A DNA stretch of 63,383 nt, the filler included, from Chrysochromulina tobinii (lineage: Eukaryota): the NCBI GenBank assembly GCA_001275005.1. It is 8 parts of 8 records of this genome, joined end to end, with 100 filler letters (N's around TTAATTAATTAA, not from the genome) between each part and the next. Parts side by side here need not be neighbours in the genome. Positions count along the whole stretch, not along the records: positions 40,499 to 51,664 come from JWZX01000302.1; 7 more parts are not named here. The stretch is one strand, 5' to 3'. The notes under the pieces are model-generated. The model worked only from the letters and a program-made list of their open reading frames with translations. It was not told where the DNA came from and searched no databases. The position numbers were made by a program, and so were the translations under genes. This document shows, piece after piece, positions 23,628-46,569 of this stretch; the stretch's first letter is position 1; each line of letters starts with the position of its first letter.

Positions 23628-24826
23628 TCACATGGATACGGCACAAAAACAACTCCTCTCTGTGATGAGCGCCATGCTGGCCATTGCCACCCACTCGTCC
23701 TTCGCCGGATCGTACTGCTCGACGGAGCTGAACCGGCCTTGGCCGTCATAGCCGCCCATCACATACAGCTTGCCATCAGACACCGCCGCCGCCGAAGCGG
23801 CTCGTGCCGTGGACATCGGTGCGACTGCCTCCCAGGCATTCTTCGCCGGATCGTATCGCTCGACGGAGCTGAGCAGGTGTTGGTGGTCATAGCCGCCCAT
23901 CACATACAGCTTGCCATCAACCACCGCCGCCGCCGGAGCGTCTCGTGCCATGGACATCGGTGTGACTGCCTCCCAGGCATTCTTCGCCGGATCGTACCGC
24001 TCGACGGAGCTGAGCGACTCATCATCTGCATCCATGCCGCCCATCACATACAGCTTGCCATCAACAACCGCCGCCACCAAACCGATTCGTGCCGCGGACA
24101 TCGGCGCGACTGCCTCCCAGGCATTCTCCTCCGGATCGTACCGCTCGACGGAGCTGAGCGACTTATCATTATCATCTGCACCATTGCCGCCCATCACATA
24201 CAGCTTGCCATCAACCACCACCGCTGCCGAACAGAATCGTGCCGTGGGCATCGGTGCGACTGCCTCCCAGGCATTCTCCTCCGGATCGTACCGCTCGACG
24301 GAGCTGAGCGACTTATCATTATCATCTGCACCATTGCCGCCCATCACATACAGCTTGCCATCAACCACCGCCGCTGCCGAACAGAATCGTGCCGTGGGCA
24401 TCGGTGCGACTGCCTCCCAGGCATTCTCCTCCGGATCGTACCGCTCGACATAGCTGAGCGACATATCATCTGCACCATTGCCGCCCATCACATACAGCTT
24501 GCCATCAACCACCGCCGCCGCCGGAGCGCATCGTGCCGTGGACATCGGCGCCATCGCCTCCCACACATTCGCCATGGAGTCGTACCTGTAAAAGGTGGCC
24601 AACGCATCACCGCCATTGGCGAGCCCGCCCACAATGTAGAGCTTCTCAAAGCCCACACGACGACGCGCCGAGTCGCCATGCAGTGCGCCAAGCAAGGACT
24701 GACTAAGCACCTGCATGCCAGCAAATGTCCTCAGCAATGGCTCGTTGTGCACCGTCTCTTGCACAAACTCGCGACTCAGCAGCGGAAAGCGCACCAGCCG
24801 AAGCAGTGCCAGCGCGTCGTCCTCGG
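23628..24826 (-). CDS. Kelch-repeat protein (probably BTB-BACK-Kelch), 5' truncated, 7 Kelch repeats
   Basis: End of a BACK domain (VRFPLLSREF), then repeats of LYVMGG...SSVERYDP..NAWEAVAPM..AR....AAVVDGK. Confidence 0.92.
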
Positions 24827-43400: not shown

Positions 43401-44604
43401 CACTACGAGCGGCTGGATATGCTCGAGCGTCGACGCGGCCGGCACGACCTCCAGATACAGCACGTCGTTATCCTTACACGCCTGCGCGTACGCCGACGCG
43501 ACCTTCGCGAACGAGTCGCGGTAGTTGGCGCGAATAGTCTCGGTGGCGCCCCGAGAGCGCTCATCACGGCGCTCGGACTCGTCCACTACGCCCTGGAGCA
43601 GGCCGTGCGCGAGGGCGAGCCGGCACACCTGCTTGCCGTACCGGAACTCGTCCGCGTCGATCGCCGCCGCATGCAGCTGCGAGAGCGCCGCATAGGTCCG
43701 ACGGTTCCAGCCCACCACCTGCGCCCACACGGGCGGCGTCACCTCCCGTAGAGGCGTCGTGTTGAGCGCATGCGCGACCTCAGCGTAGGCGACGGCGAGC
43801 TGCGCGGCGATGCGCGAGAGCAGCTTGGGCGACATGCCGTCCAGGCTCGCACGCTCGTAGAAGCAAAGCTGTGCCTGCGCGAGCATGAGCCTCTTGAGCA
43901 TCGAGAGTGACTGCGGGCTCAGGTCGATCGTCGTGCGAGCGGCCCAAGGGCAGCCCCTGATGTAGTCGCTCAGGTGCTCGAGCAGCCCCGCCGCCTGCTG
44001 GTACAGGTTGCACGCCACTCGGAGCCCCTCGGCGACCAGCTGGTGGCTCCGCACCGCGTAGAGCGACACCTCGGCCGCATAGTTGAAGAGCGCGACTGCC
44101 GCCTCGAACTTGATGTCGGACTCGCCCTGCTTGACGACGTGGCTGTACGCGTCGCGCCAGACGAAGTGCATGCGCAGCTCATCAGCGTCGAACCGCAACT
44201 CCATCGCGCACAGCAGCCGAAAGTACTCGGCGAGCGCTCGCATCTTGGCCTCGCTGCCGACCGTGGTCGTGGTCGTGGTGGTGGTGGCGCGGCGGTCGGA
44301 GCTCGTCTCCTCGCCGAGCGTGGTGGCGCGCATCGTGGCCACCTGCGCAAATTGCTCGCGGTGCTGCTCCGCCTCCTCGGCCGAGTACTTGCGCTTGATG
44401 TACTTGTACAACGATGCCTCCCAGTCCAACCGTTTCGTTAGGGTGAGCGTGTCCTGTGCAAAGCCTCCCCGATCGGGACTCTGCGGCAGCGGGTGGCGGT
44501 GATGCACGGTGGCCCGTGGGCGGACGACGAGCACAAGGGGCTGGGAGAGGCGGTGGGCTTGGTCGCGGCGGCGTGCGGCGCACCTTGGCGGGGATGGCAA
44601 GCAT
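40499..44604 (-). CDS. BRO1/ALIX-like ESCRT accessory protein with an inserted PDZ domain and two UBA domains; introns 44454-44583, 43047-43168 (GC), 42817-42966, 42514-42765, 42151-42311, 41468-~41707; 3' truncated
   Basis: BRO1 motifs FVWRDAY, FEAAVALFNYAA, YQQAAG, LMLAQAQLCF, KDNDVLY; V-domain LPWAL and REFGPEW; PDZ GLVGMIL...DGPAAKAGVNVGDIILKIND; two MGFS UBA motifs. Splices restore the frame. Confidence 0.87.
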
Positions 44605-45068
44605 TCCAAGTTCGTGTTCACAAACCGTTCACACTCGGATTTTCCATGCCAAGGGTCCACCGGGTACGGTACCCCAGCGGAAATTCTCGAAGCACGCATG
44701 TGAGGTATCACGCCGCCCCTGTAAGCTTCGACTTGACGAGACTTGACTCTCAACACAACAGGGCAGCAGCAGCACAACCCAGGGAAGAAGCCGCAGCTTC
44801 GACCATCTCCACCCACGTGCGCTTCACTACCACTTGACTGCCCAGTCCTGAGACCCCGAGCTGGGCTGCCTCTCTCAAGGGCATGTGACTCTTCGTTCGC
44901 GAAGAGCTTCGGAGCCACATGCCGCACTCATCCTTGCGGCACGCTGTTGGCTGTTGCATGTCTGCGCCTTTCGGAACTTGCAGCCGCGCTGTGCTGTGAT
45001 CCCATATCTCCACGCTGCCAAATGCACGCATGCAGCCTAAGCATCTCTTCTTCTCTCTTGTTCGCAGG

Positions 45069-46569
45069 ATGATCGCGACGCTCATCAAATGTGTAACGGA
45101 GAAGACCAGCGCCCACAGCGGCGCATCAATCGATTGGGTCGCCTTTTCCCAAGACGGGACCAAGCTTGTCTCGGGATCGGATGACACTAGAGGGAAATAC
45201 AGTAGGTGTCCCGGGATCAAAGTCTGGGATTCGGGTGCGCTGTCCCCTCAAATCGCGCCTCCTTGGCCAAAACTGACCCCTGCTGGCTTGTCTGGCAGAT
45301 GCGCTGGGGCTGTTGAGCGAGAAGACGAACGTCCACAGCGTTATCCACAGCGCGGACCTCAGCTCGGTCGCGTTCTCCCCGGACGGGACCAAGATTGTGT
45401 CGGGATCGGCTGACAGGACGATCAGAATCTGGGACTTGGGTGCGCCGCGAGCCCTCAAAATCGCCCCTCCTTGGCCAAAACTGACGACTGTTGGCTTGCC
45501 TGGCAGATGCCCTGGGGCTGTTGAGCGAGAAGACGAACGCGCACGGCTACTCCATCAGGTCGGTGGTATTTTCCCCGGACGGGACCAAGATTGTGTCAGG
45601 ATCGTCCGATGGGACGATCAGGGTCTGGGATTCCGGTGCGCCGGAGCCCTCAAAATCGACCCTCCTTGGCCAAAACTGACCCCTGCTGGCTTCTCTGGCA
45701 GATGCGCTGGGGCTGTTGAGCGAGAAGACGGACGCGCACAGCGCCCGGGTCATGTCAGTGGCATTTTCCCCGGACGGGACCAAGATCGTGTCTGGATCGG
45801 CTGACAAGACGATCAAAGTCTGGGATTCAGGTGTGCGCCGGAGCCCTCAAAATCGCCCCTCCTTGGCCAAAACTGACGACTGTTGGCTTGTCTGGCAGCT
45901 TTGGAGCTGATCAGCGAGAAGATGAATGCCCATAGCACTTATATCTTCTCAGTGGCGTTTTCCCCGGACGGGACCAAGATTGTCTCTGGATCGGGCGACA
46001 GGACGATCAAAGTATGGGATTCGGGTGCGCCGGAGCCCCCAAAATCGCCCCTCCTTGGCCAAAACTGACGCCTGTGCTGGCTTGTCCGGCAGATGCGCCG
46101 GGACTGTTGAGCGAGAAGCCGAACGCGCACAGTCTCTACATCCACTCGGTGGCGTTTTCCCCGGATGGCACCAAGATCGTGTCCGGATCGGCCGACAAGA
46201 CGATCAAAGTTTGGAATTTGGGTGCGCCGAGCCCTCAAAATCGCCCCTCCTTGGCCAACACTGATGCCTGCTGGCTTGTCCGGCACAGATGCGCTGGAGC
46301 TGGTGCTGATGAGCAAGAAGTCGAAAGCCCATAAGAGCACCGTTAATTCGGTGGCGTTTTCGCCCGATGGGACCAAGATCGTGTCGGGATCGAACGACGG
46401 GACGATCAAAGTCTGGGAAATGGTCGAGTGGTCTCGCAAAGATCATTTGATGTTCAACATCGCCACCCAGCGATTTGTCTTGCGGCTGCTGTGGCTGAAC
46501 AAGTACAGCATGAAGTTTCCTGATGATGTGCTTGATCTGCTCGTTCGAGCTTGCTTGCAAAGCAGGTGA
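45069..46569 (+). CDS. Seven-bladed WD40 protein, one repeat per exon (45069-45234, 45299-45439, 45507-45635, 45702-45830, 45899-46024, 46093-46221, 46289-46569), with a C-terminal F-box-like tail
   Basis: Repeats of H....[22 protein letters not shown]. Six phase-1 GT-AG introns of 64-68 nt restore a single frame. Confidence 0.9.

What the first reader, a model, noticed from the sequence alone, without database searches (positions are those of the whole stretch)
45069..46569. WD40 gene built from interchangeable exon+intron cassettes with hypervariable binding-face residues (exon-shuffling receptor candidate)
SEEN: seven blades, each on its own exon (internal exons 126-141 nt, all multiples of 3). 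They are separated by six near-identical phase-1 introns (consensus GTGCGCCGGAGCCCTCAAAATCGCCCCTCCTTGGCCAAAACTGAC...TGGCTTGTCTGGCAG) with an invariant palindromic core TTGGCCAA. The framework [18 protein letters not shown] is nearly constant, while residues after the His vary in every blade (SGASIDW, SADLSS, GYSIRS, SARVMS, STYIFS, SLYIHS, KSTVNS), as does SGS-x-D. KNOWN: these are the positions diversified in fungal HET-E/HNWD NLR WD40 repeats, and one-repeat-per-exon shuffling is described for Ectocarpus ROCO-LRR and NB-ARC-TPR genes. INFERENCE: a diversity-generating recognition protein without an NTPase domain. Its tail W..KDHLMF...LLWL...[10 protein letters not shown] resembles an F-box-like E3 adaptor motif, hinting at variable substrate (e.g. 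viral protein) degradation.
Basis: partly seen in the sequence, partly recalled or inferred. Interest (0 to 1): 0.8.

Follow-up and report, generated by a model that had tools for sequence, protein, structure and literature searches.

The report
Algal propeller genes sharing swappable blades
A freshwater alga carries dozens of genes that build a ring-shaped binding protein with one blade per exon, share identical blades between different genes including immune-receptor-like ones, and vary fastest at the predicted gripping surface, so they likely form a variable recognition library, with this copy predicted to send what it binds for destruction.

Summary
Observation confirmed: seven WD40 blades, one per exon, six 64-68-nt phase-1 introns 92% alike, a 366-aa product. 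The gene belongs to a spliced Chrysochromulina family (35 distinct loci seen in culture-type assemblies, about 48 estimated). The same intron-plus-blade unit builds stand-alone propellers with a conserved 49-aa tail (22 loci), NACHT-WD40 NLR-like genes (7), and an insert in a U-box-dynamin gene. Blades form one pool: they are as distant within as between genes or classes, and identical 190-232-nt tracts sit at different positions of different genes, NLRs included. The three most variable codons are the known top-face binding positions; between alleles pN there is 0.25 against pS 0.10. Corrections: exchange does not respect exon borders, wild alleles of this locus keep their blade order, the palindrome is not invariant, and the upstream AG ends a 5'-UTR intron in a paralog. 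The tail resembles a one-helix C-terminal F-box but matches no profile; Skp1 binding is untested. It works like fungal HNWD repeats combined with brown-algal exon-per-repeat genes. This scan noted related cases on other DNA. New variant of a known kind.

The parts
44800..45067 (+). 3' part of a 5'-UTR intron shared by the stand-alone class; acceptor AG at 45066-45067 (start of the range approximate)
   Evidence: Aligns with the upstream DNA of 14 other stand-alone loci (last 300 nt 85% alike on average). In paralog L055 the transcript-type record L059 splices two non-coding exons onto this acceptor, with no upstream ATG in its 136 nt. RNA pieces begin at 45068 in 2 of 4 runs, one piece in a third run starts at 45051. 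The window locus's own first exon differs from the family's and was not mapped.
45068..45234 (+). Exon 1 of the coding region: ATG at 45069, blade 1 with an 11-codon insertion after the b-c turn
   Evidence: 183-nt RNA piece with 0 differences (run X13)
45235..45298 (+). Intron 1 (64 nt, phase 1)
45299..45439 (+). Exon 2, blade 2 (141 nt)
45440..45506 (+). Intron 2 (67 nt)
45507..45635 (+). Exon 3, blade 3 (129 nt, the family's standard length: 138 of 155 internal exons)
45636..45701 (+). Intron 3 (66 nt)
45702..45830 (+). Exon 4, blade 4 (129 nt); most changed blade in wild allele L076 (27 differences)
45831..45898 (+). Intron 4 (68 nt)
45899..46024 (+). Exon 5, blade 5 (126 nt)
46025..46092 (+). 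Intron 5 (68 nt)
46093..46221 (+). Exon 6, blade 6 (129 nt)
   Evidence: RNA pieces start at the acceptor with 0 and 2 differences (runs X11, X12)
46222..46288 (+). Intron 6 (67 nt)
46289..46419 (+). Exon 7, blade 7
   Evidence: Pfam WD40 E 1.3e-12
46420..46569 (+). Exon 7, conserved 49-aa helical tail and stop codon; F-box-helix-1-like motif FPDDVLDLL at about 46516-46542
   Evidence: 35 distinct tails, 16 invariant columns; pN 0.06 vs pS 0.21; predicted helices 8-11, 14-29, 35-47, pLDDT 73; divergent relatives read LPEEILDML, LPDELLDLV, LPDEVLDMI

Best explanation
This is an intact, spliced seven-blade WD40 gene of a Chrysochromulina family whose genes share identical blade-sized tracts, likely through gene conversion or unequal crossover, and whose fastest-changing residues are the predicted binding-face positions, so it likely acts as a variable non-self sensor whose conserved tail is predicted to recruit a cullin ubiquitin ligase. 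SHOWN: gene structure; family size; one blade pool shared by stand-alone propellers, NACHT-WD40 genes and a dynamin gene; excess amino-acid change at five codons per blade; conserved tail. INFERRED (about 0.85): the 194-nt unit is homogenised by ectopic conversion in tracts from tens of nucleotides to about one unit, the near-identical introns lengthen the homology and keep every swap in frame, and selection retains new binding-face combinations. INFERRED (about 0.65): the ligands are parasite (for example giant-virus) proteins or other non-self proteins. PREDICTED, untested (about 0.4): the tail is a truncated C-terminal F-box that binds Skp1, so stand-alone copies would mark bound targets for degradation while NACHT copies would signal.
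For: Pool: mean exon distance 19.9 of 129 nt within loci, 20.7 between; stand-alone/stand-alone 20.5, NACHT/NACHT 20.9, across classes 20.6; same position 20.3, different position 20.2 (137 exons). Class and position labels on a blade tree do not differ from shuffled labels (101 and 441 of 500 shuffles as low). A 192-nt identical tract sits in four loci (NACHT locus L009 blade 5, seen in two assemblies; L040 blade 4; L057 blade 5; L067 blade 2) and a 232-nt tract in L020 blade 5 and L057 blade 3, while neighbouring blades differ at 7-17 of 69 nt in 7 of 8 comparisons, 36 in the eighth. Selection: among 220 unique exons codons 14, 15, 17, 33, 35 have pN 0.43-0.73, exon-wide pS 0.28, framework pN 0.06; over 10 allele pairs pN 0.253 (135 of 534 sites) against pS 0.10-0.11, framework pN 0.029, introns 0.027. 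Codons 15, 17 and 33 are R1-2, R1 and D-1, the top-face hotspots defined in PMC3419727 (passages); the D-H-S-W tetrad is kept in 210-220 of 220. All 155 internal exons parsed from culture-type loci are in frame and stop-free. NACHT members: PF05729 above cut-off, NPHP3_N E 3.7e-29, APAF1_C. Tail: purifying selection, helix-loop-helix model, LP(D/E)E(V/I/L)L in divergent relatives (F-box consensus recalled); a C-terminal F-box cut to one helix can bind Skp1 (cowpox CP77, PMC4353913 passages). C. parva has lytic giant viruses (PMC6459981, listing and abstract start).
Against: No ligand, infection response or phenotype is known. The tail has no F-box, SOCS or other Pfam match in 35 close and 6 distant members and ends right after the helix-1-like segment. 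Short-read assemblies are unreliable for near-identical WD40 repeats (PMC12222747, passages), so mosaic arrays from wild samples and some identical tracts could be assembly products; L057, which holds four of the long tracts, was seen in one assembly only. Blades show slight clustering by locus (8 of 500 shuffles). The variable codons were picked from a pool that overlaps the allele set, codons are not independent, and 3 of the 10 pairs were called alleles from array similarity alone. Arrays are identical between repeated culture-type assemblies, so nothing points to somatic rearrangement. That all culture-type records are one strain was not established record by record.
Confidence: 0.55

Rival explanations
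1. Same variable recognition family, but the tail is not a ligase adaptor: it is an oligomerisation or docking helix pair, and the stand-alone propellers act as decoys, co-receptors or partners of the NACHT-WD40 proteins.
For: No profile or fold match for the tail; the tail was found only behind WD40 blades or in fragments of the family (17 of 18 hits among 1.84 billion representatives, 1 spurious); stand-alone and NACHT genes share blades, so could bind the same ligands.
Against: The LPxE(I/L/V)L-type motif at the very C-terminus behind a repeat domain is the layout of poxviral ankyrin/F-box proteins.
Confidence: 0.27
2. The stand-alone genes are mainly a reservoir of blades for the NACHT-WD40 receptors (donor loci), with little function of their own.
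For: Blades are exchanged across classes.
Against: They are spliced, intact, 15 of 19 complete copies hold exactly seven detected blades, the tail is under purifying selection and is kept in relatives at 39-59% identity.
Confidence: 0.08
3. Diversified recognition for a non-immune purpose, such as mating or self-recognition between strains, prey handling in this mixotroph, or control of selfish elements.
For: Podospora HNWD repeats with the same signature serve allorecognition; sequence data cannot name the ligand.
Against: No signal peptide or membrane segment is evident in the stand-alone protein, and the pool is shared with NLR-like and dynamin genes.
Confidence: 0.07
4. Neutral recent expansion plus assembly artefact: tandem duplication of one exon-intron unit, relaxed constraint on surface loops, and chimeric short-read contigs.
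For: Array introns (86-88% alike) are no more conserved than the 5'-UTR intron between paralogs (85%); repeats of this kind mis-assemble.
Against: pN exceeds pS about 2.5-fold at five codons, which relaxed constraint cannot give; arrays recur identically in up to five assemblies.
Confidence: 0.03

Closest known systems
Podospora HNWD/NWD NLRs (het-d, het-e, het-r, nwd genes) with high-internal-conservation WD40 repeats (PMC12222747, PMC13449251, PMC4986451; passages read)
   Same: Repeats about 80% or more alike, a few hypervariable binding-face codons under diversifying selection, identical repeats in different genes; the Chrysochromulina NACHT-WD40 class has the same domain order.
   Different: This gene has no NACHT or HET domain; each blade has its own exon behind a homogenised intron (the word intron does not occur in two of the three fungal texts); Podospora repeats differ more between paralogs than within, whereas here distances are about equal within and between genes; unicellular haptophyte.
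Brown-algal ROCO-LRR and NB-ARC-TPR genes (PMC3341825, PMC11378527; passages read)
   Same: One repeat per exon in one phase, positive selection on the binding face, proposed immune role in an alga.
   Different: WD40 closed propeller instead of LRR/TPR solenoid; phase 1; 64-68-nt near-identical introns with no orphan or inverted exons found; blade number mostly seven; no GTPase or NB-ARC; alternative splicing not shown here.
Tetrahymena 90-bp-exon LRR genes (PMC6564038; passages read)
   Same: Unicellular eukaryote, exon-per-repeat arrays, near-identical exons in different genes, arrays fused to other domains, ectopic recombination proposed.
   Different: Tens of genes instead of thousands; WD40; no retrotransposon link found.
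Poxviral ankyrin/F-box (PRANC) proteins with a truncated C-terminal F-box (PMC4353913; passages read)
   Same: Repeat domain followed by a short C-terminal helical motif; one helix can suffice for Skp1 binding.
   Different: Host-encoded, WD40, hypervariable; no profile match and no binding evidence here.

Membership tests
NWD/HNWD NLR (NACHT-WD40) | NACHT/STAND NTPase in the same polypeptide | tested here: not met
   ATG directly precedes blade 1; upstream exons are non-coding in paralog L055/L059; the upstream ORF in the window is a BRO1 gene on the other strand. Met by 7 other loci of the family (NACHT region read in 5 of them).
NWD/HNWD NLR (NACHT-WD40) | WD40 repeats with high internal conservation (80-100%) | tested here: met
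   81% mean nucleotide identity in this gene, range 75-85%, at the low edge; about 84% family-wide.
NWD/HNWD NLR (NACHT-WD40) | Diversifying selection on a few binding-face codons per repeat | tested here: met
   The match to HET-E positions 10-14, 30, 32 rests on my recalled HET-E numbering.
NWD/HNWD NLR (NACHT-WD40) | Repeat exchange between paralogs | tested here: met
   for the family; no long tract shared with another locus was found for the window gene's own blades (closest: exon 6, 9 of 129 nt from L123).
Exon-per-repeat shuffled receptors (Ectocarpus ROCO-LRR / NB-ARC-TPR, Tetrahymena LRR) | Each repeat on its own symmetric exon of near-fixed length | tested here: met
   (138 of 155 internal exons are 129 nt, all multiples of 3)
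Exon-per-repeat shuffled receptors (Ectocarpus ROCO-LRR / NB-ARC-TPR, Tetrahymena LRR) | Spare, inactivated or inverted repeat exons in or beside the gene | tested here: not met
   No unit outside the array in the window; the only opposite-strand units in 124 loci belong to a second gene in L019. Many loci are short.
Exon-per-repeat shuffled receptors (Ectocarpus ROCO-LRR / NB-ARC-TPR, Tetrahymena LRR) | Alternative splicing that recombines repeats | tested here: inconclusive
   Joints in RNA contigs skip or go back but cannot be told from paralogs; three transcript-type records keep genomic order where matched and retain single introns (they were selected for holding an intron).
F-box protein (SCF substrate adaptor, incl. 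truncated C-terminal type) | F-box profile or fold match | tested here: inconclusive
   No Pfam or PDB sequence match; a one-helix remnant would be too short for these tests.
F-box protein (SCF substrate adaptor, incl. truncated C-terminal type) | Helix-1 motif LPxE(I/L)L (recalled consensus) on a helix | tested here: met
   FPDDVLDLL here, LP(D/E)E(V/I/L)L in 3 divergent relatives; helix 35-47 in the model. Judged by eye.
F-box protein (SCF substrate adaptor, incl. truncated C-terminal type) | Binds Skp1 and assembles on Cul1 | not tested
   No co-folding or experiment was run.
SOCS/VHL-box protein (WSB-like WD40 plus C-terminal box) | BC-box (S/T/P)LxxxC motif before the cullin box (recalled consensus) | tested here: not met
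   The long tail helix has neither the leading Leu nor the Cys in the alignment; judged by eye.
Introner / intron-generating transposon | The same intron at unrelated sites in unrelated genes | tested here: not met
   120 of 124 loci with the intron core have it beside a WD40 blade, at the same codon position wherever parsed; the other 4 are unrelated chance matches.

The most novel reading that the evidence does not exclude
A single-celled alga keeps one genome-wide library of interchangeable binding blades wired to several outputs: NLR-like switches (predicted N-myristoylated, with a RelA/SpoT-like nucleotide-signal domain inside the NACHT region), stand-alone ubiquitin-ligase adaptors, and a dynamin. 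A specificity selected in one class would be copied into the others by conversion, coupling 'alarm' and 'destroy' responses to the same viral target.
Probability: 0.3. Interest if true: 0.85.

Novelty: new variant of a known kind. Interest (0 to 1): 0.64.

Why it matters
How bloom-forming haptophytes recognise their giant viruses inside the cell is open. This family gives concrete candidates in a cultured host with isolated viruses, with five named codons per blade as the specificity code and wild alleles to correlate with resistance. It also joins two diversification designs known apart (fungal near-identical WD40 repeats; exon-per-repeat genes of brown algae and ciliates) and suggests that a recognition repertoire can be shared between NLRs and non-NLR effectors. 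The short, 84%-alike blades make the conversion mechanism easier to trace than in fungal HNWD genes.

Tried and rejected
No whole genome was held for this window, so copy number comes from metagenome records. Palindrome as a recombination signal: rejected, 37 of 88 unselected introns keep it and its column diversity is like the rest of the intron. Intron RNA structure: z-scores -0.72 to 0.85 for 6 of 6 introns. Introns as unusually conserved: they match the 5'-UTR intron level between paralogs; it is the exons' synonymous sites (0.23-0.28) that are more diverse. Introner: rejected. Viral origin: 0 intron-core matches and 0 tail relatives in viral contigs. Tail identity: Pfam none or noise, PDB sequences best E 0.075 and none, fold search best Z 5.8 among unrelated helical bundles, viral models none under E 0.001, protein atlas no usable hit; none of these excludes an F-box remnant. 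Co-folding of the tail with a stand-in Skp1 (90-sequence alignment; no haptophyte Skp1 identified) was not available and nothing was folded. The model of C. parva P0179 was low-confidence (pLDDT 63, TM about 0.2 to propellers) and was not used. P0015 (window exon 1 joined to L055 exons 6-7) and L051 (mosaic of L028 and L065) look like recombinants but were not counted: 48 identical nt span the P0015 junction and L051 is a single wild contig. Pair L028/L054 (one blade missing) was left out because the register changes. The 5' end of the window locus's own transcript remains unmapped. Literature: no paper in the held library has Chrysochromulina with NACHT and WD40 (0 papers); searches listed no description of this family. 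The C. tobinii and C. parva genome papers and all supplements were not read and could mention it.

Full report
1. Observation. The region holds a 197-nt tandem array. Cutting at GT..AG gives six introns of 64-68 nt, all phase 1, and exons 2-6 of 141, 129, 129, 126 and 129 nt; the joined frame is open for 366 aa from ATG 45069 to TGA 46569. Introns are 92% alike, exons 81%. The intron core occurs 6 times against 0 in shuffles. The last exon scores as WD40. Neighbours are eukaryotic genes (BRO1, JmjC, Kelch, mitochondrial carrier). Relatives of the tail are named Chrysochromulina tobinii (P0006) and C. parva (P0179) by their sources, and locus L123 carries the same three blades as P0006, so the organism is a freshwater Chrysochromulina.

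2. Expression and 5' end. RNA contigs laid at 85% likeness are far deeper over exons than introns and show exon-exon junctions at the predicted borders; two pieces match this gene without a difference (183 nt of exon 1, 100 nt of exon 6). Most of the depth belongs to paralogs. Transcript-type record L059 equals DNA locus L055 at 99-100% with four of six array introns and two 5' introns removed; its two upstream exons hold no ATG. The AG at 45066-45067 is therefore most likely the end of a 5'-UTR intron, and the protein has no N-terminal domain. This is shown for the paralog and inferred for the window gene, whose first exon differs from the family's.

3. Family. Of 124 loci, 120 have the intron beside a WD40 blade and 4 are chance matches. 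They reduce to 72 distinct arrays. In the culture-type assemblies, which share identical arrays, there are 35 distinct loci, about 48 by Chao1, a lower bound. Twenty-two are stand-alone propellers with the same head or tail; 15 of the 19 complete ones have seven detected blades. Seven end in a different tail; their upstream exon encodes NACHT, NPHP3_N and APAF1_C matches, a weak RelA/SpoT match inside the NACHT region (E 0.046, below cut-off) and a candidate start MGAGAS in 5 of 5 loci checked (myristoylation reading recalled, start not verified). One array sits inside the ARM repeats of a U-box-dynamin gene. Five loci are too short to class. All 155 internal exons parsed are in frame and stop-free.

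4. Selection. Among 220 unique 129-nt exons, codons 15, 33, 17, 14 and 35 have entropies 3.9, 3.5, 3.4, 3.1 and 2.2 bits and pN 0.43-0.73, against exon-wide pS 0.28 and framework pN 0.06. By the rule of PMC3419727 (passages) codons 17, 15 and 33 are R1, R1-2 and D-1, the top-face hotspots; Trp, Tyr, Arg, Asp and Met dominate them. Three wild alleles of the window locus (L037, L046 by 97%-alike flanks; L076 by upstream DNA and order) keep blade order but have pN 0.23-0.35 at the five codons against framework pS 0.07-0.09. Over 10 allele pairs: pN 0.253, pS 0.10-0.11, framework pN 0.029, introns 0.027. In pair L032/L049 all seven blades differ at the loops (pN 0.54) while introns differ by 5%. 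Limits: sites were chosen on overlapping data, and three pairs rest on array similarity only.

5. Exchange. Exons are about as far apart within a gene (19.9 of 129) as between genes (20.7), between classes (20.6) or between positions (20.2-20.3). On a blade tree, class and position behave like shuffled labels, locus shows a small signal (trees of short recombining sequences are only descriptive). Identical tracts of 190-232 nt join different loci and positions, running from the end of one exon through the intron to near the end of the next exon; one 192-nt tract is in an NLR-like locus and three stand-alone loci, with unlike neighbours. Sharing the first loop predicts the second loop of the same exon (24 of 133 pairs, 4.8 expected) but not the loop across the intron (4 of 89, 3.1 expected). 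But 109 of those 133 pairs differ at the second loop, r-squared falls from 0.05 to 0.018 within 15-30 nt, and rare half-blade markers pair with many partners across classes. Exchange follows homology and does not stop at exon borders. The introns help by adding homology and keeping the frame; they are no better conserved than the paralogs' 5'-UTR intron (86-88% against 85%), do not fold, and the palindrome is variable. Short-read assemblies can fail on such repeats (PMC12222747, passages); identical arrays in up to five assemblies argue for accuracy here, but long reads are needed, and these same identities give no sign of somatic rearrangement.

6. Tail. The 49 aa are under purifying selection (pN 0.06, pS 0.21; 22 tails) and are predicted to form a short helix, a long helix and a last helix that begins at the invariant Pro. 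A profile search of 1.84 billion representatives gave 18 hits, 17 of them family members or fragments, the distant ones again behind a WD40 blade. Those read LPEEILDML, LPDELLDLV and LPDEVLDMI, like helix 1 of an F-box (consensus recalled). Poxviral C-terminal F-boxes are truncated and one binds Skp1 with helix 1 alone (PMC4353913, passages). No profile or fold search named the tail. I put the ligase reading at about 0.4.

7. Mechanism. Shown: structure, family, shared pool, site-specific amino-acid excess, conserved tail. Inferred: ectopic conversion among 194-nt units supplies variation and selection keeps new binding faces. Inferred: non-self ligands, with giant viruses the obvious pressure since C. 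parva has them (PMC6459981 and bioRxiv 10.64898/2026.01.07.698126, listing and abstract start). Predicted: stand-alone copies deliver targets to an SCF-type ligase while NACHT copies signal.

8. Known and new. Near-identical WD40 repeats with hypervariable sites and intergenic exchange are known from Podospora (PMC12222747, PMC13449251, PMC4986451; passages). Exon-per-repeat shuffling is known from brown algae (PMC3341825, PMC11378527) and Tetrahymena (PMC6564038). The gene works like these but is not an NLR. New here: the two designs combined in WD40, in a haptophyte, with one pool feeding NLR-like, stand-alone and dynamin genes. Six searches showed no description of the family; the genome papers and supplements were not read. 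Earlier notes of this scan report exon-per-blade WD40 genes judged static and an intronless case of two protist families trading WD40 repeats; I did not test them and they did not change the scores. Verdict: real, new variant of a known kind, interest 0.64.

Noticed in passing
window 23631-24824, minus strand: End of a Kelch gene with seven intronless blades, about 89% alike, varying at loop residues; the stretch before it looks like a BACK domain (recalled), which would make it a second near-identical-repeat propeller of ligase-adaptor type in the same organism.
   Followed up: partly
L021 1878-2300; L009, L019, L043, L063: NLR-like class has a RelA/SpoT-like segment (E 0.046) inserted in the NACHT region and a candidate MGAGAS start; possible nucleotide second-messenger output.
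   Followed up: partly
L008 428-4300: Seven-blade array with the same introns inserted into the ARM repeats of a U-box-dynamin gene; junctions lie inside blade exons.
   Followed up: partly
L041 1-3183: NACHT-class gene with an internal duplication of the helical region and an unrelated insert, joined through a copy of the same intron.
   Followed up: no
L059, L099, L095: Transcript-type records retain single array introns; intron 2 of L055 is 63 nt, stop-free and retained in two records, so may add 21 residues in frame; 45 of 153 family introns are multiples of three.
   Followed up: partly
P0006: The public C. tobinii model named UDP-N-acetylglucosamine diphosphorylase joins a three-blade family member to an enzyme; locus L123 has a stop after the tail, so the model is probably a mis-fusion.
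   Followed up: partly
window 44430-45069: The gene lies head to head with a BRO1-domain gene, about 0.5 kb apart, and its first exon region differs from the promoter region shared by other stand-alone copies.
   Followed up: no
window, several places: The window holds regular short N-bounded joints and looks like several contigs placed end to end, so distant genes in it need not be true neighbours.
   Followed up: no
L125-L132: Skp1-like genes in viral contigs, three of them with apparent introns in very large genomes.
   Followed up: no
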